Shown one piece after another: positions 4,095 through 22,966 of a stretch of DNA of 23,808 bases; positions within the stretch are counted from its first letter, which is position 1, and the number at the start of each line of letters is the position of its first letter. The notes under the pieces are model-generated. The model searched no databases. It saw only the letters and a program-made list of their open reading frames with translations, and was not told where the DNA came from. Both the position numbers and the translations under genes were made by a program. The DNA comes from Magnetococcales bacterium (GTDB lineage Bacteria; Pseudomonadota; Magnetococcia; Magnetococcales; UBA8363). The stretch lies in NCBI GenBank assembly GCA_015660855.1, contig JACSDG010000107.1, forward strand, positions 1 to 23,808. Reading direction: 5' to 3'.

Positions 4095-4170
<76 letters not shown>

Positions 4171-5041: not shown

Positions 5042-8000
5042 TTAAAGGATTTTAGTCGGCGCAACCCCAGACTTTTTTCCCCCAAGAAAATCGAGCATCC
5101 GTTCCAAATGTTGCAGGCGCAACAGAGGATCTTCCCAGTACCGCTCACGAAAAGTAAGCAGATTTTTCTCCTGGTTAAACACCACCGAACCTCCACCCTG
5201 GCGAATCATGTCGATCAAAACGGCAGGCTGAATGTTGGGCTGGGAATGAAAGGTCAGGACGGCCCCTTTGGGACCCGCTTCCAGTTTGAGTACCTTGAGT
5301 TTGATACACCTTCGCTTGATGGCCACCACCTTCAATAAATTTTCCACCGAATCGGGCAGAGAGCCAAAACGATCGGTAAACTCCACCTTCATCTCCGCTG
5401 TTTCATCAGGCGTTTTTAATTCGGCCACCCGTTTGTACATGGTCAATCGTAAATTCATGTCGGTGATGTAAGTGTCGGGAATGTTGGTGGAAAGATTCAG
5501 ATTGATGATGGGGACAATTTCTTCCTCCTGGGGGCTGCCACCCCGATCGGCCATCGTCCCCGCACCATAAGCCTCCACCGCTTCCTTCAACATTTGGTTG
5601 TACAGTTCAAAACCTATTTCCTTGATGTGTCCCGATTGTTCTTCCCCCAACACGTTGCCTACGCCACGAATTTCCATGTCGTGGCTGGCAAGCATGAAAC
5701 CCGATCCCAACTCCCCCAAAGCTTCGATGGCCTCCAGACGTTTACGAGCATCGGCGGATTGGGCCTGAATGGGGGGGGTGAGCAGATAGGCATAAGCCCG
5801 GTGTCGCGAACGCCCCACCCGTCCGCGCAACTGGTGCAATTGGGCCAGACCAAAATGATCGGCCCGATGGATGATGATGGTATTGGCACTGGGAATGTCA
5901 ACCCCGTTCTCAATGATGGTGGTACACAGCAACAAGTTGAATTCCTGGCGATAAAAGGCCACCATGATCCGTTCAAGGCGACCAACGGGCATTTGACCGT
6001 GGGCGATGCCGATTTTGGCTTCGGGGACCAGTTCTGCGATGCGGATGGCCATGCGTTCAATTTCCTGGACCTTGTTGAACACATAAAACACCTGACCACC
6101 ACGATAAATTTCCCTGAGAATCGCCTCACGGATACGGGCGGAATTGTATTCAGTGACAAAGGTACGGATTGCCAGGCGATTGGTTGGGGGGGTGGCAATG
6201 ATGGATATGTCGCGAATGCCCGACATGGCCATATGCAAGGTGCGGGGAATGGGGGTTGCGGTCAAGGTCAGAATATCAACGTTGGCGCGCATGGCTTTAA
6301 TGCGTTCCTTGTGGCTGACACCAAAACGTTGCTCTTCATCAACTATGAGCAACCCCAAATCTTTGAAAGCGATGTCCTTTTGCAGCAGGCGATGGGTGCC
6401 GATGACAATATCCGCCTTGCCCTCACCAATTTTTTCCGCAAGTTCATCCATTTGTTTTGCGGTGCGAAACCGAGACATCATGGCGACGTTGACGGGATAG
6501 GGGGAAAACCGTCGGGAAAAAGTTTCGTAGTGTTGTTGCGCCAGAATGGTCGTGGGGGTAAGAACGGCCACCTGCTTGCCATCCATGACGCAACGAAACG
6601 CCGCACGCAAAGCCACCTCGGTCTTGCCAAACCCGACATCGCCGCAAATCAACCGGTCCATGGGACGCAACGAGGCCATGTCCGACAATACCGCTTCGAT
6701 GGCCTGGGCCTGATCGGGAGTTTCATCGTAGGGAAACGCAGTGGCAAATTCATGGTCCACGGCATGGGGACTGGAAAACCGGATTCCTTTGGCGGTTTCA
6801 CGCTTGGCTTGCACTTCGACCAGTTCCGCCGCCATTTCCAATAATTTTTTCTGGACCTTTTGGCGGGTTTTTTTCCATTTAGTCCCCCCCAGTTTGTCCA
6901 GAATCACTTCGTCAGACCCGGCGTATTTGCTGACCCGGTCCAGGTTTTCCACCGGCACGTAGAGTTTATCCGACCCGGCGTAGGTCAAAAGGAGAAAATC
7001 GTTTTGAATCCCCCCCACCGCCAAAGTATGCAATCCCCCGAAACAACCAATGCCATGGTCGGCATGAACGACAAAACTGCCCTCCTTCAAATTGCGAAAG
7101 GTGGCCAGGATACGGTCCAGGTATTGGGGATCGGTATGTTTGCGACGTGCCCTGGTTCCCAAAACGGCGTCTTCGTTGAAGACCGCCAGTCGCAGACCCG
7201 CATGGACAAAACCACTGGCCAAGTCCCCCAAAACCAATTGTATACGCTTGGAAGAAACCAACAGGGCATCCTGCCAACTTGCGGCACTTTCAGTCTTATG
7301 ACCATGATCGGCCAGCAATTCGGCCACCCGATCCCGTTGCCCCATGGAACGGGTGGAAATCACAATGCGGTGCTGCTGTTTTTGTTGCGTCTGAATAAAG
7401 TTGACAACCCGTTCCACCACGGAATGTCCCGACAGAACATCCTCGCCGGCAGGATCAAAAAAATCGGGAACGCGGTCAAATCCCAGAGAACAACCAGGTT
7501 CATCGGGATTGTCCTTGATTTGCAGTACCTGAAAATGCGCCAAAGATGCAAAAAGTTGCTGTGCCGTGATATAGAATCGGTGGACCGGCAACAGGCGCAG
7601 ATGGGACGCATCTTCTTCCTTGAGCAACAATTCCCTTTGGTTATTCACTTTTTCCTCGAAAGCGACCCCAGCCGGTTCCACATCGGCATCGAGAAGAATT
7701 TGGCTGCCTTCGGGAAGATAATCGACCAAAAGGTCGGTGGTGTCGTAGAACAGCGGCAAAAACCGCTCCATCCCCTGAAATTTTCCCCCGGTGGAAACCA
7801 CCTTGTAAATTTCATCGCTGGCCGCCTTGCCGCCAAAGGTTTCCCGGTAGAAAGTGCGAAAACAACGGATGGTCTCCTCGGTCAAAAGAACCTCGCTCAT
7901 GGGCAAGGTCTCAACCTTGGAATTTCTTTGGGTGGAACGTTGGGTTTGGATGTCAAAATGGCGGATGGTTTCCACCTGGTCGCCAAAAAGTTCCACCCGC

Positions 8001-8623
8001 ACCGGTTCTTCATAGCCGGGAGGAAACAGATCGATGATGCCACCACGCGCGGCGAATTCACCCGGTTCTTCAATCTGGGCGGAGGATCGGTAGCCGGAGG
8101 CGATTAAAAATTGTTTGAAGGCGGGAAGATCAATCTGATCCGATTCCCGGATGGCAAATCCATGTTGCGCCAAGAGATGCCGGGGCATGAGTCTTTGCAT
8201 CAGGGCCATGGGGGTCGTAATGATGATGGCTTGTTGGTATCCCGCATTATTTTCGGGGCGAACCACGCCAAATCCAAGCATTTGGGTCAGACGATACAGG
8301 GTGGCAATGCGTTCACCGACGATGGGACCATAGGGTGACAAAGGTTCAAACGGCAATATTTCCCACGCCGGAAAAGGGAGAATGGCGACGGGACGGTGTC
8401 GATCCCCCTGAAACAACAACAACTCTCGATAGATAGCCTCGGCCCGTGTGGTTTTTCCGGTGACGATGACCAGGGGGCTTGTGCGGGTCGCCGCCCACTC
8501 TTTGACAAACAAACTCAGCGTCGCCCCCGGCAAATCTTTCAGCACACCGAAAGGGTGACCAGGTGTTTTGGGCAGGGGAGCCAACAGTTTGGAAAACAGG
8601 GAAGCGAACGGGCTTGGATCCAT
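5042..8623 (-). CDS. mfd: Transcription-repair coupling factor Mfd
   Basis: 1193-aa ORF. It has an SF2 helicase core with Walker A 'GDVGFGKTEVALRAAF' and motif II 'LLIVDEEQRFGVSHKE'. The UvrB-homology N-terminus, RNA-polymerase-interacting region, TRG motif region and C-terminal D7 domain follow in the expected order. The length is typical for Mfd. Confidence 0.95.
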   Translation of the reverse strand: MDPSPFASLFSKLLAPLPKTPGHPFGVLKDLPGATLSLFVKEWAATRTSPLVIVTGKTTRAEAIYRELLLFQGDRHRPVAILPFPAWEILPFEPLSPYGPIVGERIATLYRLTQMLGFGVVRPENNAGYQQAIIITTPMALMQRLMPRHLLAQHGFAIRESDQIDLPAFKQFLIASGYRSSAQIEEPGEFAARGGIIDLFPPGYEEPVRVELFGDQVETIRHFDIQTQRSTQRNSKVETLPMSEVLLTEETIRCFRTFYRETFGGKAASDEIYKVVSTGGKFQGMERFLPLFYDTTDLLVDYLPEGSQILLDADVEPAGVAFEEKVNNQRELLLKEEDASHLRLLPVHRFYITAQQLFASLAHFQVLQIKDNPDEPGCSLGFDRVPDFFDPAGEDVLSGHSVVERVVNFIQTQQKQQHRIVISTRSMGQRDRVAELLADHGHKTESAASWQDALLVSSKRIQLVLGDLASGFVHAGLRLAVFNEDAVLGTRARRKHTDPQYLDRILATFRNLKEGSFVVHADHGIGCFGGLHTLAVGGIQNDFLLLTYAGSDKLYVPVENLDRVSKYAGSDEVILDKLGGTKWKKTRQKVQKKLLEMAAELVEVQAKRETAKGIRFSSPHAVDHEFATAFPYDETPDQAQAIEAVLSDMASLRPMDRLICGDVGFGKTEVALRAAFRCVMDGKQVAVLTPTTILAQQHYETFSRRFSPYPVNVAMMSRFRTAKQMDELAEKIGEGKADIVIGTHRLLQKDIAFKDLGLLIVDEEQRFGVSHKERIKAMRANVDILTLTATPIPRTLHMAMSGIRDISIIATPPTNRLAIRTFVTEYNSARIREAILREIYRGGQVFYVFNKVQEIERMAIRIAELVPEAKIGIAHGQMPVGRLERIMVAFYRQEFNLLLCTTIIENGVDIPSANTIIIHRADHFGLAQLHQLRGRVGRSRHRAYAYLLTPPIQAQSADARKRLEAIEALGELGSGFMLASHDMEIRGVGNVLGEEQSGHIKEIGFELYNQMLKEAVEAYGAGTMADRGGSPQEEEIVPIINLNLSTNIPDTYITDMNLRLTMYKRVAELKTPDETAEMKVEFTDRFGSLPDSVENLLKVVAIKRRCIKLKVLKLEAGPKGAVLTFHSQPNIQPAVLIDMIRQGGGSVVFNQEKNLLTFRERYWEDPLLRLQHLERMLDFLGGKKSGVAPTKIL

Positions 8624-17472: not shown

Positions 17473-18570
17473 TCAAGGAACGGGCAAAGGTGGCGGTCCA
17501 CCCGCAGCAGGTTGCGTCACCAGAGTTCCCCATTCGGGGAGTTGCGCAAGTGCAACCCATTGGGGCATGCCGGGTTTCCAGGCAAGGGTTTGGCCCGAAA
17601 TCTGACCGGAGGCAAGCCATTGCCGCACCCCCGCCAGATCATAAGGCCCTTGCTGTTGCCCCTGGATGACCAGATGATACTGGGATGCGGTCGGAAGTGG
17701 GGGCGGCGCAAGTGGAGCTTGTATAGCGGGAGCGGCTGCCTGTTGCCCCATGGCCATTCCTATCCCCATCCCCATCATCCCACCGGCCTGACCTGGGTTT
17801 TCCGCCGCTTTTTCCATGGCCACGGCGGTCTGGAAACGATTGAACGCCCCCAAGTCGCCAATCATCCCCATGCTGGTTCGTTTATCCAACATTTTTTCCA
17901 CTTCTTCGGGGAGGGAAATATTTTCCACCAGGGGTTTCGCAAGTTCCAGGCCGTACTCCTGAAACTCGGGACCGATGCGTTTTTGCAGCATCACCCCAAG
18001 CTCGTCGTATTGGGTGGAAAGATCCAACAGAGGAATTCGGCTTTCCGCCAGGGCGTCGGCAAATCGGGAGACAAACAGGGATCTTAACTGTTCGGTGATT
18101 TCATCCAGAGTGAAACGACCGTCGGTACCGACCACCGCCGCCACCAGTTTTCCAGGGTCTGCCACCCGTATGGAAAAACTGCCAAAACCACGCAGACGGA
18201 CCGGACCAAATTCAGGGTCGCGCAAAATGATCGGGTTCTTGGTACCCCATTTAAGATCGGTAAAGGTGCGCAGACTGACAAAATAGACTTCCGCTTTGAA
18301 CGGGCTGGAAAAACCGTATTTCCATCCCTTGAGGGTGGTAAGAACGGGAATGTTGCGGGTTTCCAAAGTGTAGAGGCCGGGATTGAAACCGTCGGCGAGT
18401 TGGCCTTCGTTGACAAAAAGGGCATGCTGCCCCGCACGCACCACCAGTTGGGCACCATATTTGATTTCGTTGTCGTAGCGTTCAAAACGATAGACGAGGG
18501 TGTCGGCAGAATCATCGGTCCATTCGATGATATCGATGAATTCCCCGGCGATTTTTGAAAAAAAACCCAT
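17473..18570 (-). CDS. SPFH/band-7 domain protein of the COG4260 'virion core protein-like' type (YdjI-like) with C-terminal GYF-like (DUF4339) domain
   Basis: The start 'MGFFSKIAGEFIDIIEWTDDS' is the characteristic N-terminus of this SPFH subfamily, and the SPFH core follows. A Gly/Met-rich linker leads into 'YHLVIQGQQQGPYDLAGVRQWLASGQISGQTLAWKPGMPQWVALAQLPE' (GYF-like) and a Pro-rich tail. A GGAGA SD lies 7 nt upstream of the ATG at 18570. The ORF-track N-terminal extension to 18816 has no support. An A8/T8 run occupies codons 3-5. Confidence 0.75.
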   Translation of the reverse strand: MGFFSKIAGEFIDIIEWTDDSADTLVYRFERYDNEIKYGAQLVVRAGQHALFVNEGQLADGFNPGLYTLETRNIPVLTTLKGWKYGFSSPFKAEVYFVSLRTFTDLKWGTKNPIILRDPEFGPVRLRGFGSFSIRVADPGKLVAAVVGTDGRFTLDEITEQLRSLFVSRFADALAESRIPLLDLSTQYDELGVMLQKRIGPEFQEYGLELAKPLVENISLPEEVEKMLDKRTSMGMIGDLGAFNRFQTAVAMEKAAENPGQAGGMMGMGIGMAMGQQAAAPAIQAPLAPPPLPTASQYHLVIQGQQQGPYDLAGVRQWLASGQISGQTLAWKPGMPQWVALAQLPEWGTLVTQPAAGGPPPLPVP

Positions 18571-19059
18571 AATTTTTTCTCCCCGTTCCCCGTCGGTTGA
18601 TGATGCCATCCCTTCTTGCAAGGACGGCATGGCTTGGCATCCTGTTGGCGTCAATCTATCATTTTCAACGGCTTCACTGCACCTTAAAAGCAGGGGCCGC
18701 TCCACCATTCTACCCGTTTTATTTGACAATTCCAGCCGGCGGCGACCCACCGTCGGTGCCCTGCCTTCATCCATATGGATTTCTACGCCATGGAGAAAAA
18801 AGTTAAAACTATACATTATTAATTACCAATGAATGCAAAAAACGTACTTGGATTCATTCATAATTTAAATTATTATTTGCAAGTCATTCTTGGTTTTATT
18901 ATTATTAAAATTGGATGGCAAGTTGTTGCCTGGGGGACTCTTTGACTTTTCTTTTTTTAAAGGGTATAGTCCCCACCCTGGCATTTCGTGGTGGATGCGA
19001 AAGGAGCTGTATGATATTATTGTGGATCAACAGGGAGATGCAACAAAGGCTGTCGTTTC

Positions 19060-19283
19060 TTCCTCATGCGGTCCGGGCCATGAAAGAAATTACCGCAAAG
19101 ATCAGCATCATCGAAGAAATTGCCCGACAGACCAACCTGTTAGCTTTGAATGCGGCCATTGAAGCCGCGCGCGCCGGCGAGAGTCATGCGTCTGCCGGGG
19201 CATTGCCTTCGCCGTCTTCCAAATCCGGTGGGGCTGACCTGGATATGGGGTCGTCTGCGGTGGATGAATTTGAATCTTTCTGA
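19060..19283 (+). pseudogene. Remnant of a methyl-accepting chemotaxis protein signalling domain (frameshifted and truncated)
   Basis: '[34 protein letters not shown]' is the highly conserved MCP hairpin-tip core. The expected following 'GRGFAVVA' appears shifted into another frame ('RGIAFAV'), then the reading frame collapses. No HAMP, sensor or TM region lies upstream. The AT-rich tract 18800-18960 flanks it. Confidence 0.55.
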
Positions 19284-19317: not shown

Positions 19318-19752
19318 ATGAGAAGACCCAAGCGCACATTCAACCCAAAAAGAGAGGTTCGTCCTGTACCGGGTACAGACACCGAGCGGGAAAATCTTGT
19401 GAGTTTGGCATCCAAGGTTGTCTATGGTGGTAATCCCGAGCACAAACGCAACCCCGGTGACTTTGGCTTAACTCCTCCGAGTAGTCCAAGACAGGGAAAG
19501 ACTTTGTGTGATTCGGTCGGTATTTTTACTCAGCGAGAGTCTACCAAGTTGCTTCGGGAAGGGGTGCGACGCGGGGTAATCAGTCGCCGTGAAAAAAATG
19601 GATGGCCTCAAAATGTATGGGCTGTTGACGCCAACGGTATGCCCATGGAAGCTCAATTGGAAAACGCTGAACGGGGGATTTATCATGGTTACCCAATGCC
19701 AGAAACCGATATTTTCCGAGAAAAGATTCTAGAACGCTGGGGGCAACATTGA
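19318..19752 (+). CDS. Hypothetical small basic protein (144 aa), first gene of an uncharacterised two-gene cassette
   Basis: The N-terminus 'MRRPKRTFNPKREVRP' is strongly basic. It is followed by 'KVVYGGNPEHKRNPGDFG' and the C-terminal 'ERGIYHGYPMPETD'. I recognise no family. The RBS is weak. The stop overlaps the downstream start (TTGA). Confidence 0.45.
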   Translation: MRRPKRTFNPKREVRPVPGTDTERENLVSLASKVVYGGNPEHKRNPGDFGLTPPSSPRQGKTLCDSVGIFTQRESTKLLREGVRRGVISRREKNGWPQNVWAVDANGMPMEAQLENAERGIYHGYPMPETDIFREKILERWGQH

Positions 19753-21110
19753 GTGAACTCTTCGTCATCACTCCCCTGAAGTGGACACCCGCTGTCTACG
19801 GACCGGAAGAGGTACGGCAAACGTCAGCAATATTACAGTTCACCGTCAATAACCGTCTGGTAACCAGGGTCGATAACGATTGGACAAGAGTAGTCGATAA
19901 AACAGTATGTCTTTCTGCATACCCTCTAGCTCTTTGGCTTGTTTCTTCTTGGTGGCGTTTGCATTGGGAACCGGTACCAGCTGGGATACCCAATATTGAA
20001 TGGCGTATAGCCCACGAAATGGGGAGCGCAGGCCATGGGTTTCTCTGGCCACCTGTGCGGTTCGAGTCTGATGGGGAGATGGTCACAGTCCATTGTACGC
20101 CATCCTCGGCTGAGTCCAATGAACCCATTCGTTACCTGAATCGGCTGCACGAGTCAATACCATCCGCTGAATTTACCAAAGGGATTGTGGATTTTATCCA
20201 AATTGTCATCGACAGGCTGGATTCCGTTGGTATTCAGGATACGGAGTTGCACACACTGTGGCGAGAAGTGGGCGGCGAACGGACAAACCCAAAGACAGCT
20301 TCTTACCGCAAAATGGAGGCCCTGCTCGGGTTTGACCCCGACGAAGGGCCGGAAACGATTGTTGATACACTCCTGAATTTGTCTATGGCGGTTGGGGATG
20401 CGGCAGTAGCAGAGATTGCTGCCAGTACGTCTTCCCCCCTGCACTTGAATCAGGTGTTGGAGAGTGCCAGATCTGCGGGTCTCCAAGGAAACCTCTCTGG
20501 TATTTATGCCCTGATGCCGCAAGCAACCTGGTGTCATTACACAACGGCAACCCCCTGGGACCGGGGCCGAGACTTGGCCCGAACAGTACGTCAACACTTG
20601 AGCTTATATTCTGCGCCCGTCTCCAACCGCCTCCTGAGTGACATTTTAGGGCTAGAGGAACGGGGTCTGGCCGATGGTGATGCGCCTATGGCCGGGACTG
20701 ATTTAAGCTTGGCAATCAAATCGGAAGAGGGGGATCAGGTCAATCTGCTTTTTCGCCGTAAGCGTCCAAACGGGCGACGTTTCGAGGTAGCCCGCTGGAT
20801 GGCTGATGTTCTGCTATCCTCAGCCCAAGACCGTTGGCTACCCGCCACTAACGCAAAAACGGCCCGACAAAAAGTTCAGCGCGCATTTGCCGCTGAGTTC
20901 CTGTCCCCAATTGATGCCCTGAAAACTTACCTGGACAACGATCTGGCCGACGAAGATCGCATTGAGGAGGCTGGAGGTTATTTTGGGGTTTCCCCGTTAA
21001 CCGTCCGGAGCCAATTGGTCAACCATGGTTTGGTTCCGTGGAACGTCATAGGCAACGGTTCTACTCCAAGGGATTCTTGGTTGGAAGAGTGGGAAAAGGT
21101 AAAAGCCTGA
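19749..21110 (+). CDS. Hypothetical protein with C-terminal ImmA/IrrE (M78 peptidase, COG2856)-like domain lacking the HEXXH zinc site
   Basis: 453-aa ORF. The first ~340 aa are unrecognised. The last ~110 aa 'RRFEVARWMADVLLSS-(20)-QKVQRAFAAEFLSPIDALKTYL...GGYFGVSPLTVRSQLVNHGLV' align in spacing and residues with the ImmA/IrrE core 'RFTLAHELGHLLLH-(~25)-EANxFAAELLMP...FGVS.....RL..LGLI'. HELGH is replaced by RWMAD and the downstream Glu ligand is absent. The TTG start is uncertain. Confidence 0.55.
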   Translation: MSELFVITPLKWTPAVYGPEEVRQTSAILQFTVNNRLVTRVDNDWTRVVDKTVCLSAYPLALWLVSSWWRLHWEPVPAGIPNIEWRIAHEMGSAGHGFLWPPVRFESDGEMVTVHCTPSSAESNEPIRYLNRLHESIPSAEFTKGIVDFIQIVIDRLDSVGIQDTELHTLWREVGGERTNPKTASYRKMEALLGFDPDEGPETIVDTLLNLSMAVGDAAVAEIAASTSSPLHLNQVLESARSAGLQGNLSGIYALMPQATWCHYTTATPWDRGRDLARTVRQHLSLYSAPVSNRLLSDILGLEERGLADGDAPMAGTDLSLAIKSEEGDQVNLLFRRKRPNGRRFEVARWMADVLLSSAQDRWLPATNAKTARQKVQRAFAAEFLSPIDALKTYLDNDLADEDRIEEAGGYFGVSPLTVRSQLVNHGLVPWNVIGNGSTPRDSWLEEWEKVKA

Positions 21111-21124
21111 TGTGAGTCCTCCCC

Positions 21125-22966
21125 ATGTGCGGTATCGCCGCCCTGTTTGCCTATCATCCCGATGCCCCCGCCAACGATGTCCAGGAACTGTTGCGCATGC
21201 GCGAAGCCATGGCCCTGCGTGGTCCGGATGCCGCCGGGATCTGGAACAACGAAGACGACAGAGTGACCCTGGGACATCGCCGGTTGGCCATCATCGACCC
21301 GGAGCAACGTGCCAATCAGCCCATGATCAGCCAGGATGGCCGCCATGTGGTGGTCTTTAACGGCGAAATCTATAACCATCCAGCGTTGCGAGAATCCCTG
21401 GGCCGCCTCGGCCATTCCTTTCAAACCCGTTCCGATACCGAAGTGCTGCTCCATCTCTATGCCGAATATGGCGTCGACATGCTGACCCATCTTCGAGGCA
21501 TGTTTGCCTTTGTTCTGTGGGACCGGCTTGCCAAATCCCTGTTGGTTGCCAGAGACCCCTATGGCATCAAACCTCTCTACTACGCCGATGACGGCTCGAC
21601 CATTCGTATCGCCTCCCAGGTCGGGGCACTGTTGGCGGGAGGTCGGGTTTCGCGTCAGCCGGATCCGGCAGGATGGGTCGGGTTTTTCCTGTTTGGCAGC
21701 GTCCAGGAACCCTTTACCCAGTACCAATCCATTCGCGCCTTGCCAGCCGGTTGCTTCCTGCGTGTCACCTCCCAAGGAACAGGCGCGATAACCGAATATT
21801 TTTCCCTGGCCGCCACATTTTTACATGCTGCCAACCATCCCAATCCATGGCAGCCGGAAAAGGTGGCGGAAAATGTACGCGCCATCCTCCGGGATTCGGT
21901 GCAAGCACACCTGACTGCGGATGTCCCCGTCGGAGCCTTTCTTTCCTCCGGGGTGGATTCGGGGGCACTCGTCGGTCTCGCCCAGGAAACCAAAAAAGAA
22001 AAAATCCATACCGTCACCCTCTCCTTTGAAGCCTTCCACCAAGATCAACGCGATGAAGCCCCCCTGGCCCAGCGCGTCGCCGAGCATTACCAAACCCAAC
22101 ATGTCACCCGCATGGTGACACAGCCCGAATTTCACCGCGAAATCCCCGCCATCCTCGCCGCCATGGACCAACCCACCATCGATGGCATCAATACCTGGTT
22201 CGTTAGCAAGGCGGCCAGGGAATTGGGCCTGAAAGTGGCCCTCAGCGGTCTGGGTGGCGATGAACTTTTTGGCGGCTATCCCTCATTCTCAGACATTCCC
22301 CGCTGGCTGAAAATCGCCCGCCTTGCCCGGCATATCCCTTACTCCGGACCGATGTTTCGCCATCTCTCCCTGCCTTTGTTTCAATCCTTGCCCGGCCTGG
22401 GGGCCAAAGGGGCCAGCTTTTTCATGTATGGGGCTTCATTCCCTGGAGCCTATCTGTTGCGTCGGGGAGTGTTCATGCCTTGGGAATTGCCTGCCTTGTT
22501 GGGTGAGGACATGGCAACGGAAGGATTGCAACGCCTGGATGTGCTCGCCCATATCGAAAAATCCATGCCCCCGGCCCCATCGGGAACCTTCGCCCGTATC
22601 GCCTCCATGGAAGCAAGTCTCTACATGCGTAATCAACTCCTCCGCGATACCGATTGGGCCTCTATGGCCCACTCCCTGGAGGTGCGTACCCCCCTGGTGG
22701 ACCGTGTCGTCCTGCAATCCCTGGCACCCTTGTTGATCCAATCGCAGACGGCCCGGGGAAAACAATGGCTCGCCCAGGCCCCAAAGCCTCCCTTGCCTCC
22801 CGAAGTGGTGTATCGTAAAAAAACAGGGTTTACCATACCGGTCCAGGCTTGGCTGTTAAACCATCCCCAACTGGATGGCTGGCGGCATGTCCCCATGCTG
22901 GCTCACCACGGCTGCCATGGATCCCGGCGGTTGGCTTACGCCGTTTATCACCACAGATCACAGTGA
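21125..22966 (+). CDS. Asparagine synthase (glutamine-hydrolysing) family amidotransferase
   Basis: 613-aa ORF. The N-terminal 'MCGIAALF' carries the catalytic Cys2 of the Ntn glutaminase domain. The synthetase domain has a PP-loop 'FLSSGVDSGALVGLA'. The overall length and order are typical of AsnB-family proteins. Such paralogues are common in exopolysaccharide loci. Confidence 0.9.
   Translation: MCGIAALFAYHPDAPANDVQELLRMREAMALRGPDAAGIWNNEDDRVTLGHRRLAIIDPEQRANQPMISQDGRHVVVFNGEIYNHPALRESLGRLGHSFQTRSDTEVLLHLYAEYGVDMLTHLRGMFAFVLWDRLAKSLLVARDPYGIKPLYYADDGSTIRIASQVGALLAGGRVSRQPDPAGWVGFFLFGSVQEPFTQYQSIRALPAGCFLRVTSQGTGAITEYFSLAATFLHAANHPNPWQPEKVAENVRAILRDSVQAHLTADVPVGAFLSSGVDSGALVGLAQETKKEKIHTVTLSFEAFHQDQRDEAPLAQRVAEHYQTQHVTRMVTQPEFHREIPAILAAMDQPTIDGINTWFVSKAARELGLKVALSGLGGDELFGGYPSFSDIPRWLKIARLARHIPYSGPMFRHLSLPLFQSLPGLGAKGASFFMYGASFPGAYLLRRGVFMPWELPALLGEDMATEGLQRLDVLAHIEKSMPPAPSGTFARIASMEASLYMRNQLLRDTDWASMAHSLEVRTPLVDRVVLQSLAPLLIQSQTARGKQWLAQAPKPPLPPEVVYRKKTGFTIPVQAWLLNHPQLDGWRHVPMLAHHGCHGSRRLAYAVYHHRSQ

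What the first reader, a model, noticed from the sequence alone, without database searches (positions are those of the whole stretch)
20775..21020. ImmA/IrrE-like (M78) domain with HEXXH replaced by RWMAD: a probable pseudo-protease
The C-terminal ~110 aa of the 453-aa protein reproduce the ImmA/IrrE core layout. The block R-F-x-hydrophobic-A is followed by a 5-residue site, hydrophobics, a ~26-aa spacer, then xFAAEhLxP and a distal FGVS...RL..LGL helix.

The zinc-binding HExxH is ARWMAD (20790-20807). The downstream E of the 'EANxFAAELL' element reads 'VQRAFAAEFL'.

Loss of all three metal ligands with retention of the fold-defining residues suggests a non-catalytic sensor or scaffold role, not a peptidase. 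Dead M78 domains are rarely annotated. One here could mark a regulatory module that binds but does not cleave its partner.
Basis: partly seen in the sequence, partly recalled or inferred. Interest (0 to 1): 0.6.

Follow-up and report, generated by a model that had tools for sequence, protein, structure and literature searches.

The report
Dead M78 protease domain, toxin-like partner
The last third of a 453-residue protein has the fold of ImmA/IrrE-type zinc proteases, but its zinc-binding and catalytic residues are replaced by an equally conserved arginine-centred motif, and the gene always sits beside a small RNase-toxin-like gene as a mobile, uncharacterised two-gene cassette found in hundreds of bacterial species.

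Summary

The alignment puts R349, W350 and D353 on His, Glu and His of HExxH.

None of 120 homologues, nor any of 82 further genomic copies, has an HExxH anywhere. The replaced site (R344, F345, R349, W363, R373, Q374, Q377, R378, E383) is invariant and is the most conserved stretch of the protein. It is a selected, re-purposed site, not a decaying relic.

The gene overlaps by 4 nt a 144-aa basic protein with a weakly RelE/CdiA-CT-like fold. This pair is syntenic in essentially every locus examined: at least 493 species in more than 12 phyla, in unrelated neighbourhoods.

My best reading, which is inferred, is a toxin-antitoxin-like cassette. The large acidic protein would neutralise the small one, using a CdiI-immunity-like N-terminal domain, a helical middle domain and the dead M78 domain as a non-cleaving binding or sensing module.

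PrpR (non-catalytic M78) and VapB52 (M78 antitoxin) are precedents. I rate it a new variant of a known kind.

The parts
19318..19752 (+). Partner gene: a 144-aa basic protein (pI about 9.9), the putative toxin or effector. Conserved motifs are YGGNPEHKRNPGDFGL.PP, K.LCD, GWPQNVWAV and G.YHGYP.
19749..19752 (+). TTGA overlap: the start codon of the 453-aa gene overlaps the stop codon of the 144-aa gene, which suggests translational coupling.
   Evidence: Sequence. The same 4-nt overlap is seen in called genes at L001, L003, L086 and L088.
19749..21110 (+). 453-aa three-domain protein, acidic overall (pI 5.2).
19749..20162 (+). N-terminal beta-rich, Trp-rich domain (residues 1-138; SAYPLALW..SWWRLRWEP, W.xAHE, G.G.LWP). 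It is CdiI-immunity-like.
20163..20543 (+). Middle all-helical, strongly acidic domain (residues 139-265).
   Evidence: Helices 139-240. Median charge -10. It is the least conserved domain.
20553..21038 (+). M78 (ImmA/IrrE)-fold domain without a zinc site (residues 269-430).
20766..20816 (+). Former active-site helix (residues 340-356). R344-F345 are retained. HExxH is replaced by R349-W350-M351-A352-D353 (nt 20793-20807).
   Evidence: Alignment to IrrE 'QRFTLAHEISH'. R344, F345 and R349 are present in 120/120. Position 350 is F/W/L/M/I/Y. Position 353 is D 94, E 21.
20862..20909 (+). Second site helix (residues 372-387, ARQKVQRAFAAEFLSP). Q374 (nt 20868-20870) occupies the position of the third zinc ligand Glu, and R378 that of the conserved Asn.
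   Evidence: hhalign. R373, Q374, Q377, R378, F380, E383 and P387 are present in 120/120.
20982..21032 (+). Terminal helix-turn-helix-like motif of the M78 family (FGVSPLTVRSQLVNHGL). The protein ends about 25 residues later, so there is no GAF domain.
   Evidence: PF06114 profile positions 69/70-119 match here in the five homologues inspected. Helices 402-412 and 416-425, with the tail at pLDDT<50.

Best explanation
The 453-aa protein is the large, acidic, non-catalytic partner in a self-contained, horizontally mobile two-gene cassette that works like a toxin-antitoxin (toxin-immunity) pair.

Shown:
- Its C-terminal 160 residues are a bona fide M78/IrrE-fold domain.
- The zincin machinery is permanently replaced: His1 by an invariant Arg, the catalytic Glu by a hydrophobic residue, His2 by Asp/Glu, and the ligand Glu by an invariant Gln. 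It cannot be a canonical metallopeptidase.
- The replaced site is the most constrained part of the protein.
- The gene is obligately coupled to the upstream 144-aa gene.

Inferred:
- The small basic protein is an RNase-type (BECR/RelE-like) toxin or effector.
- The large protein keeps it inert, with the CdiI-like N-terminal domain acting as the immunity module.
- The ex-protease domain serves as a non-cleaving recognition module. It could clamp a substrate-like segment of the partner, for example the invariant but poorly modelled stretch 36-65 of the small protein. Or it could sense a trigger, as the related active domains of CapP, PprI and VapB52 sense ssDNA.
- Release of the toxin would then depend on ligand-induced rearrangement or on degradation of the large protein, not on self-cleavage.
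For: Fold and dead site:
- hhalign E 8.4e-6, with R349/W350/D353/Q374 on H/E/H/E.
- No HExxH in 120 + 82 homologues.

Selection on the site:
- Residues 330-390 have the highest conservation in the protein (0.73, against 0.53-0.63 for the domains), with 13 positions at >=98%.

Obligate pairing:
- The big gene lies directly downstream in 77/77 testable loci seeded with the small protein.
- The small gene lies directly upstream in nearly all 80 GTDB loci seeded with the big protein.
- The 4-nt start/stop overlap is conserved.

Mobility:
- At least 493 species genomes across more than 12 phyla.
- Flanking genes are unrelated in every locus inspected, including an insertion between dioxygenase alpha and beta subunit genes.
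- Two copies sit on one contig.

Polarity (small = toxin):
- The small protein is more conserved than its partner in the same loci, about 50-60% against 35-50% identity.
- It is basic, while the partner is acidic.
- Its best structural neighbours are CdiA-CT, RelE, MqsR, YoeB and HigB toxins.
- The partner's second-best fold class is CdiI immunity proteins.
- The small gene is deleted, frameshifted or carries a nonsense codon with the big gene intact in 13 loci. These include 5 independent stops at codons 91-96. The reverse case occurs in 2 loci.

Precedent:
- COG2856-Xre proteins are genomically linked to RelE and PIN toxins (PMC2701414).
- VapB52 is an M78-containing antitoxin (PMC13273310).
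- PrpR carries an IrrE-like domain without HEXXH that is used for ligand binding (PMC6765138).
Against: - Toxicity, neutralisation and physical interaction were not tested, and could not be tested here.
- The decay asymmetry is confounded by how loci were seeded. The big-seeded set is biased towards an intact big gene and the small-seeded set towards an intact small gene. Within the small-seeded set alone the count is 3 against 2. MAG frameshifts may be sequencing errors.
- One locus (L092) has a clearly decayed big gene beside an intact small gene.
- Neither protein matches any PADLOC defence model.
- The cassette is not consistently in defence islands and is almost absent from viral contigs: 1 hit.
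- Which domain contacts the small protein is unknown. An exploratory covariation scan was dominated by clade signal.
- No DNA-binding or autoregulatory domain typical of type II antitoxins was identified.
Confidence: 0.5

Rival explanations
1. The ex-active site is a neo-functionalised ligand pocket, or a new metal-independent or carboxylate-metal catalytic centre. The domain would be a small-molecule or nucleic-acid sensor, or an enzyme of a new kind, as PrpR uses its HEXXH-less IrrE-like domain to bind CoA. The pair would be a signalling or regulatory module rather than a toxin-antitoxin pair.
For: - Polar residues lining the former site are invariant: R349, R373, Q374, Q377, R378 and E383 are 120/120. 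E346, D/E353, D/E361 and D/E368 are 106-119 of 120. That is more than fold maintenance requires.
- A basic run, FRKRNRxGRRF, precedes the site helix. In PprI the nearby R85 binds ssDNA (PMC10904395).
- PrpR is the third-best structural match and binds CoA in the homologous cavity (PMC6765138).
Against: - The protein lacks the GAF domain that forms the other wall of the ligand or ssDNA groove in IrrE, CapP and PrpR. It ends about 25 residues after the HTH-like motif.
- PprI R85 itself aligns with G342, not with a conserved base.
- No ligand can be inferred from sequence alone.
- This rival is not exclusive of the best explanation, since a sensor pocket could gate toxin release.
Confidence: 0.25
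2. The cassette is a non-toxic accessory regulator pair. The small basic protein would be a nucleic-acid-binding factor and the large acidic protein its anti-factor or chaperone. The M78-like domain would be kept only as a stable scaffold.
For: - The small protein has a basic N-terminal tail (NPKRR) and a pI above 9.
- Genomic neighbourhoods are mostly metabolic, not defence or mobile-element genes.
- One locus keeps the small gene beside a decayed big gene.
Against: - Patchy distribution across more than 12 phyla with unrelated flanks, and duplication on a single contig, are typical of selfish modules.
- The small gene is preferentially inactivated, including five independent nonsense mutations, while the partner stays intact.
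- The large protein contains an immunity-protein-like fold.
- The site residues are too conserved for a mere scaffold.
Confidence: 0.17
3. The domain is still an active metallopeptidase that uses non-canonical ligands (for example D/E353, E346 and E383) and cleaves the small protein or itself, like VapB52 or ImmA.
For: - Several conserved carboxylates remain around the site.
- All characterised relatives are proteases acting on an adjacent small partner (PMC2701414, PMC13273310, bioRxiv 10.64898/2026.05.16.725639).
Against: - The general-base Glu of HExxH is always a bulky hydrophobic residue (F71, W23, L17, M4, I3, Y2).
- His1 is always Arg, whose side chain would occupy or repel a cation.
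- The third ligand is always Gln.
- No member of the family retains an HExxH.
- Some members have Gly at position 353 (ARFIVG).
Confidence: 0.05
4. The M78 resemblance is a chance motif match and the domain is unrelated.
For: - The window protein has no Pfam hit at E<=10.
- A profile of the family finds no M78 chain in PDB by sequence.
Against: - Foldseek gives the same families.
- hhalign gives E 8.4e-6 with motif-for-motif register.
- 16/30 homologues hit PF06114. In the five inspected, the hit lies in the same stretch.
Confidence: 0.02

Closest known systems
CapP (CBASS-associated IrrE-family peptidase; PDB 7T5T) and IrrE/PprI of Deinococcus (3DTE, 8SLM/8SLN)
   Different: The Zn ligands and catalytic Glu are all replaced. 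In CapP these are H97/H101/E128 + E98, and in PprI H92/E93/H96. There is no cysteine-switch loop and no C-terminal GAF domain, so the peptidase/GAF ssDNA groove is absent. Instead there are about 265 extra N-terminal residues forming two domains. The partner is not an XRE-family repressor.
M. tuberculosis PrpR / RamB (XRE HTH + IrrE-like domain + GAF-like domain; PDB 6D2S, 6CYJ)
   Different: PrpR is a tetrameric transcription factor with an N-terminal HTH, a GAF-like domain and a [4Fe4S] cluster. None of these is evident here. PrpR sits in a metabolic regulon, not in a mobile two-gene cassette.
VapB52 antitoxin of M. tuberculosis (XRE-M78-HTH-CTD) with VapC52
   Same: It is a large multi-domain antitoxin containing an IrrE-family domain. 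A separate N-terminal domain binds the toxin, and the zinc motif is dispensable for toxin binding (PMC13273310). This is the same logic as proposed here.
   Different: VapB52 keeps HEXXH and Zn and self-cleaves on ssDNA binding. Its toxin is a PIN-domain RNase. The architecture and gene family differ.
COG2856-Xre proteins linked to RelE/PIN toxins (predicted three-component TA systems, Makarova et al. 2009)
   Same: An M78-type domain is genomically linked with a RelE-superfamily-like small protein in mobile operons (PMC2701414).
   Different: Those proteins are about 160-aa active-site-bearing peptidases, usually fused to or adjacent to an Xre HTH. Here there is no Xre domain and no HExxH, and the system has two components.
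CdiI immunity proteins (Imm23 family 5FFP; E. cloacae CdiI 4NTQ) and BECR/RelE-fold toxins (CdiA-CT, MqsR, YoeB, HigB)

Membership tests
Peptidase family M78 / ImmA-IrrE (Pfam PF06114, COG2856) | IrrE/ImmA-type zincin fold (3-stranded sheet, active-site helix, second ligand helix, terminal HTH-like motif) | tested here: met
Peptidase family M78 / ImmA-IrrE (Pfam PF06114, COG2856) | Significant match to the family HMM (PF06114 gathering score 22 bits) | tested here: not met
   The window protein has no hit at E<=10. Homologues score 13-16 bits, best E 0.001, and where inspected match only profile positions 69/70-119. Profile-profile comparison with four solved members gives E 8.4e-6, so homology is supported but the family threshold is not reached.
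Peptidase family M78 / ImmA-IrrE (Pfam PF06114, COG2856) | HExxH motif (two His zinc ligands plus catalytic Glu) | tested here: not met
   The aligned residues are R349-W350-M351-A352-D353. R349 is 120/120, position 350 is always hydrophobic, and no HExxH occurs anywhere in 120 + 82 homologues.
Peptidase family M78 / ImmA-IrrE (Pfam PF06114, COG2856) | Third zinc ligand Glu on the following helix (IrrE E113-equivalent, CapP E128) | tested here: not met
   It aligns with Q374, which is invariant in 120/120.
Peptidase family M78 / ImmA-IrrE (Pfam PF06114, COG2856) | Metal-dependent cleavage of a partner repressor or of itself | not testable with these tools
   This needs biochemistry. From the sequence, the canonical mechanism is excluded.
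IrrE/CapP subfamily (peptidase-HTH-GAF, ssDNA-activated) | C-terminal GAF-like domain forming the ssDNA groove with the peptidase domain | tested here: not met
   The protein ends about 25 residues after the HTH-like motif, and that tail has pLDDT<50. PprI R85 aligns with G342.
IrrE/CapP/ImmA systems | Adjacent XRE-family HTH repressor as substrate (DdrO, CapH, ImmR) | tested here: not met
   The adjacent 144-aa protein and 23 homologues have no HTH or other Pfam match. The model has an alpha + beta-sheet core, not an XRE fold.
Type II toxin-antitoxin-like module | Two adjacent co-oriented genes, conserved as a pair, translationally coupled | tested here: met
   77/77 testable loci and nearly all of 80 GTDB loci are syntenic, with a 4-nt overlap.
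Type II toxin-antitoxin-like module | Patchy, horizontally mobile distribution in unrelated neighbourhoods, with multiple copies | tested here: met
   At least 493 species in more than 12 phyla. Flanks are variable. Two copies sit on one contig. Two homologues carry locus tags of the same MAG, HQL64.
Type II toxin-antitoxin-like module | One product is toxic and the other neutralises it by direct binding | not testable with these tools
   Only indirect indications are available: weak toxin-like fold, immunity-like fold, charge complementarity and preferential decay of the small gene.
Type II toxin-antitoxin-like module | Antitoxin carries a DNA-binding domain for autoregulation | tested here: inconclusive
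Known anti-phage defence systems (PADLOC-DB v2) | Match to any defence-system protein model | tested here: not met
   Both proteins have 0 families at E<=10.

The most novel reading that the evidence does not exclude
This would be an undescribed, widely distributed family of toxin-immunity-type cassettes. In it a zincin protease domain has been evolutionarily 'frozen' into a substrate trap. The invariant Arg349, Gln374 and Arg378 would fill the former zinc site, and the retained substrate-binding cleft would permanently clamp an invariant, intrinsically extended segment of a new RNase-like toxin. Release would be triggered by a signal sensed by the large protein. That makes it a pseudo-protease antitoxin, mechanistically distinct from both labile classical antitoxins and self-cleaving M78 antitoxins such as VapB52.
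Probability: 0.25. Interest if true: 0.7.

Novelty: new variant of a known kind. Interest (0 to 1): 0.55.

Why it matters
M78/ImmA-IrrE proteases are the switches that de-repress prophages, ICEs, the Deinococcus radiation response and many anti-phage operons. M78 domains are normally assumed to be proteases; one homologue here is already named a metallo-endopeptidase.

This family shows a second, clearly selected, non-proteolytic lineage of the fold, the other being PrpR/RamB. It is embedded in a two-gene cassette present in at least about 500 species, and no Pfam, NCBIfam, PADLOC or PHROG model covers either protein.

If the toxin-antitoxin reading is right, three things follow:
- a new toxin family;
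- a new way of building an antitoxin, from an immunity-like domain plus a pseudo-protease;
- a natural experiment in how a metal site is replaced by an arginine network.

It also warns against naming such proteins 'metallo-endopeptidase'.

Tried and rejected
- **Single-sequence and profile searches of PDB sequences** with the whole protein, the family profile and the C-terminal profile found no M78 chain. They returned only noise (chaperonin, ankyrin, PDZ).
- **tblastn of an M78 consensus against phage records** found nothing. I obtained real M78 segments through the PDB sequence search instead.
- **A second 415-aa + 145-aa gene pair in L005** looked like a possible paralogue in reverse order. 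It has no similarity to this pair, so I rejected it.
- **Longer members of the small-protein family** were scanned for informative fusions. I found only one cNMP-binding fusion, which is probably a gene-calling or frameshift artefact, and nothing toxin-delivery related.
- **The 1.84-billion-protein profile search with the small protein** gave 772 relatives. The 150 listed are all the same stand-alone family (E<=1.5e-24), so it gave no bridge to a named toxin family.
- **A borderline match of the small protein to ribosomal protein uL24** (E 0.053) was judged noise.
- **The AFDB fold library was unavailable**.
- **Inter-protein mutual-information scan on 110 pairs.** The top pairs favour the N-terminal and M78 domains and avoid the middle domain. 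However, they are dominated by one clade-defining position (small W96), so I treat the result as inconclusive.
- **Flanking repeats, promoters, terminators and GC content** around the cassette show nothing distinctive.
- **A literature search** for catalytically inactive ImmA/IrrE proteins in toxin systems found no description of this family.
Full report
**What is at the coordinates**

The finding lies inside ORF 19749..21110 (+), which has a TTG start and encodes 453 aa. The public record of this contig carries exactly this protein as 'hypothetical protein HW380_2950' from a Magnetococcales MAG.

Nucleotides 20790-20807 encode A348-R349-W350-M351-A352-D353. 'QRAFAAEFLSP' is residues 377-387 and 'FGVSPLTVRSQLVNHGL' is residues 412-428. 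The literal observation is therefore correct.

**Is it an M78 domain?**

On its own the window protein matches nothing in Pfam, NCBIfam or PADLOC, even at E<=10.

The protein belongs to a large family: more than 700 clusters of about 435 aa, none with a precomputed Pfam domain. Sixteen of 30 members give sub-threshold PF06114 hits (best E 0.001). In the five members inspected individually, the hits scored 13-16 bits against a gathering score of 22 and all covered profile positions 69/70-119.

Foldseek independently ranks IrrE 3dte/3dti first, with probability 0.96-0.98, followed by PrpR and PprI.

I recovered real IrrE, PprI, CapP and 9vzy sequence segments through a PDB sequence search and aligned them. 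hhalign of the family's C-terminal profile (alignment A3) against them gives probability 83% and E 8.4e-6. The fold assignment is therefore secure.

**The catalytic columns**

In the hhalign alignment 'GRRFEVARWMAD' pairs with IrrE 'RQRFTLAHEISH'. This puts R349 on the first His, W350 on the catalytic Glu and D353 on the second His.

The third ligand is the Glu four residues before the conserved Asn: 'IETLCNVGAAALLMP' in IrrE and 'IEAQADLFASYLLMP' in CapP. CapP's ligands are H97, H101 and E128, with E98 as the catalytic residue (bioRxiv 10.64898/2026.05.16.725639). That Glu pairs with Q374, and the Asn pairs with R378. The conclusion that no carboxylate ligand is present still stands.

D353 could in principle bind a metal. 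However, the general base is always a bulky hydrophobic residue and His1 is always Arg, so the zincin mechanism is excluded.

**Conserved or sporadic?**

I examined 120 homologues.
- R344, F345, R349, W363, R373, Q374, Q377, R378, F380, E383 and P387 are present in 120/120.
- Position 350 is F/W/L/M/I/Y.
- Position 353 is D 94, E 21.
- No sequence has an HExxH anywhere, and neither do 82 further copies translated from genomic loci. Those loci were found with patterns that include RQKxQRAFA, so that set is biased towards this site type.

Residues 330-390 are the most conserved stretch of the protein. Their mean top-residue frequency is 0.73, against 0.63, 0.53 and 0.62 for the three domains. 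The site has been rebuilt and is under strong purifying selection. This is a selected pseudo-enzyme or a neo-functional site, not decay.

**The rest of the protein**

The model has three parts:
- a beta-rich, Trp-rich N-terminal domain (residues 1-138);
- an acidic helical middle domain (139-265);
- the M78-like domain (269-430), which ends with the family's HTH-like motif.

There is no GAF domain. GAF forms the other wall of the ssDNA or ligand groove in PprI, CapP and PrpR (PMC10904395; bioRxiv 10.64898/2026.05.16.725639; PMC6765138).

**The partner gene**

The TTG start overlaps the TGA stop of ORF 19318..19752 (+, 144 aa) in the sequence TTGA.

That small protein belongs to an even larger and more conserved family. 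It has more than 2181 clusters, about 60% identical across phyla, and 772 representatives at 50% identity clustering. It matches no Pfam, NCBIfam, PADLOC or PHROG family.

Its model has pLDDT 84. It shows a basic N-terminal tail and an invariant but poorly modelled segment (residues about 36-65; pLDDT<50 at 46-49). A helix and a three-stranded sheet carrying the G.YHGYP motif follow.

The small protein is basic, with a median pI of 9.2. The large one is acidic, with pI 5.3 and N-terminal and middle domain charges of -4 and -10.

**Linkage and distribution**

A scan of one genome per GTDB species found at least 493 genomes encoding the large protein. They include Magnetococcales, Rhodospirillales, Burkholderiales/Rhodocyclales, Methylococcales, Desulfovibrionaceae, Acidobacteriota, Cyanobacteria, Verrucomicrobiota, Spirochaetota, Armatimonadota, Hydrogenedentota, Dehalococcoidia, Synergistaceae, Oscillospiraceae and Binatia. 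Cultured carriers include Zoogloea ramigera, Rhodocyclus purpureus and Pollutimonas bauzanensis.

In these loci the small gene lies directly upstream on the same strand in nearly every case. In 80 metagenome loci seeded with the small protein, the large gene follows in 77 of 77 testable cases.

Flanking genes are unrelated from locus to locus. In one case the cassette sits between the alpha and beta subunit genes of a ring-hydroxylating dioxygenase. One metagenome contig carries two near-identical copies. Only one of 2.9 million viral contigs carries the cassette.

This is a self-contained, horizontally mobile two-gene cassette.

**Which partner looks like the toxin?**

Four lines of evidence point to the small protein, and none is decisive:
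- It is more conserved than its partner in the same loci.
- It has the weak toxin-like fold and the basic charge, while its partner carries an immunity-like domain.
- It is the gene that decays, as detailed below.
- The literature links COG2856-type proteins to RelE and PIN toxins (PMC2701414). It also describes VapB52, an M78-containing antitoxin whose separate N-terminal domain binds the toxin (PMC13273310).

For the decay evidence, 13 loci have a deleted, frameshifted or nonsense-mutated small gene next to an intact large gene:
- deletions in L010, L012 and L072;
- frameshifts or truncations in L028, L062, L064, L065 and L078;
- five independent stop codons (TAA, TAG, TGA) at codons 91-96 in L019, L055, L098, L162 and L167.

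Against these there are two loci of the opposite kind, L092 and L166.

There are caveats. Seeding biases the two locus sets in opposite directions. Within the small-seeded set alone the count is 3 against 2. MAG frameshifts can be sequencing errors.

**Mechanism proposed**

Shown: the fold, the dead canonical site, the conservation of the rebuilt site, and the obligate pairing and mobility.

Inferred: the cassette works like a toxin-antitoxin or toxin-immunity pair. The large protein sequesters the small RNase-like protein. The ex-protease domain acts as a non-cleaving recognition or sensing module. It might hold a substrate-like segment of the partner in the retained cleft, or respond to a trigger as the active relatives respond to ssDNA.

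I give this overall reading about 0.5. I put the structural core of the claim, an M78 fold that is not a canonical metallopeptidase, at about 0.9 or higher.

The rivals are:
- a neo-functional ligand or catalytic pocket, like PrpR (0.25; not exclusive of the main reading);
- a non-toxic regulator and anti-factor pair (0.17);
- a still-active non-canonical metallopeptidase (0.05);
- a chance resemblance (0.02).

**Comparison with known systems and novelty**

By fold and descent this is an M78/IrrE-family domain. It fails three defining features of the peptidase family that I tested: HExxH, the third ligand, and the HMM threshold. It also fails two features of the IrrE/CapP/ImmA systems: the GAF domain and an XRE partner. 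It should not be filed or annotated as a metallo-endopeptidase, although one homologue already is.

Non-catalytic M78 domains are not unprecedented, because PrpR/RamB exist (PMC6765138). M78-bearing antitoxins are not unprecedented either, because of VapB52 (PMC13273310).

What is new is the combination:
- an undescribed and widespread two-protein family;
- a dead but highly constrained M78 site;
- an immunity-like N-terminal domain;
- a novel toxin-like partner.

I rate it a new variant of a known kind, with interest 0.55.

Noticed in passing
window 18915-19283 (+): A 122-aa ORF lies in the 500-bp gap just upstream of the cassette. It matches only positions 17-66 of the 172-position MCPsignal profile (E 2.6e-14...[21 protein letters not shown], then diverges). 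It looks like a truncated remnant of a methyl-accepting chemotaxis protein gene, possibly a scar of the cassette's insertion.
   Followed up: partly
L019, L055, L098, L162, L167 (small gene, codons 91-96 in window numbering): Five independent in-frame stop codons (TAG, TGA, TAA, TGA, TAG) cluster just before the beta-sheet core of otherwise well-conserved small genes. The large gene is intact in each locus. The clustering may mean that an N-terminal fragment is tolerated or useful while the C-terminal core is selected against.
   Followed up: partly
window 20013-20018 (H89-E90 of the 453-aa protein): The only invariant His of the protein sits in an 'AHE' triplet (W.xAHEM..AG.G.LWP) in the N-terminal beta-rich domain, not in the M78 domain. 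It is not an HExxH, because position +4 is not His, but it is a conserved polar pair of unknown role.
   Followed up: no
L090 and L117 (both from contig Ga0302319_10009568): Two complete copies of the cassette lie about 7 kb apart on one 18.6-kb metagenome contig. They are 90% (small) and 96% (large) identical, so this is a recent duplication. In these copies the His2-equivalent is Gly (ARFIVG).
   Followed up: partly
L087 7594-9320: The cassette is inserted between a Rieske/Ring_hydroxyl_A gene and a Ring_hydroxyl_B gene of an aromatic dioxygenase operon. The small gene was not called by the source annotation here, nor in L005 and L089, so automated annotation misses it in some records.
   Followed up: partly
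L086 6894-8004: In this locus two extra small ORFs (115 and 112 aa, no Pfam) are chained by 4-nt overlaps directly upstream of the small gene. This forms an apparent four-gene operon not seen elsewhere.
   Followed up: no
L170 (IMGVR_UViG_3300025126_000720): This is the only viral-collection contig, out of 2.9 million, that carries the cassette. Its copy is divergent: 49% (small) and 32% (large) identity to the window proteins.
   Followed up: no
window 17473-18816 (-) and 21125-22966 (+): The immediate neighbours are an SPFH/Band_7_1 protein with a C-terminal GYF_2 domain and an asparagine synthase (GATase + Asn_synthase). Neither recurs next to the cassette in other loci.
   Followed up: yes
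window 4098-4170 (-): A tRNA gene (Rfam RF00005, 71 bits) is the only Rfam hit in the window. A 1193-aa ORF lies nearby at 5042-8623 (-). Neither was examined.
   Followed up: no
P0009 and P0011: Two different homologues of the large protein carry locus tags of the same Magnetococcales MAG (HQL64_07455 and HQL64_16900). At least some genomes therefore hold more than one copy of the cassette.
   Followed up: no
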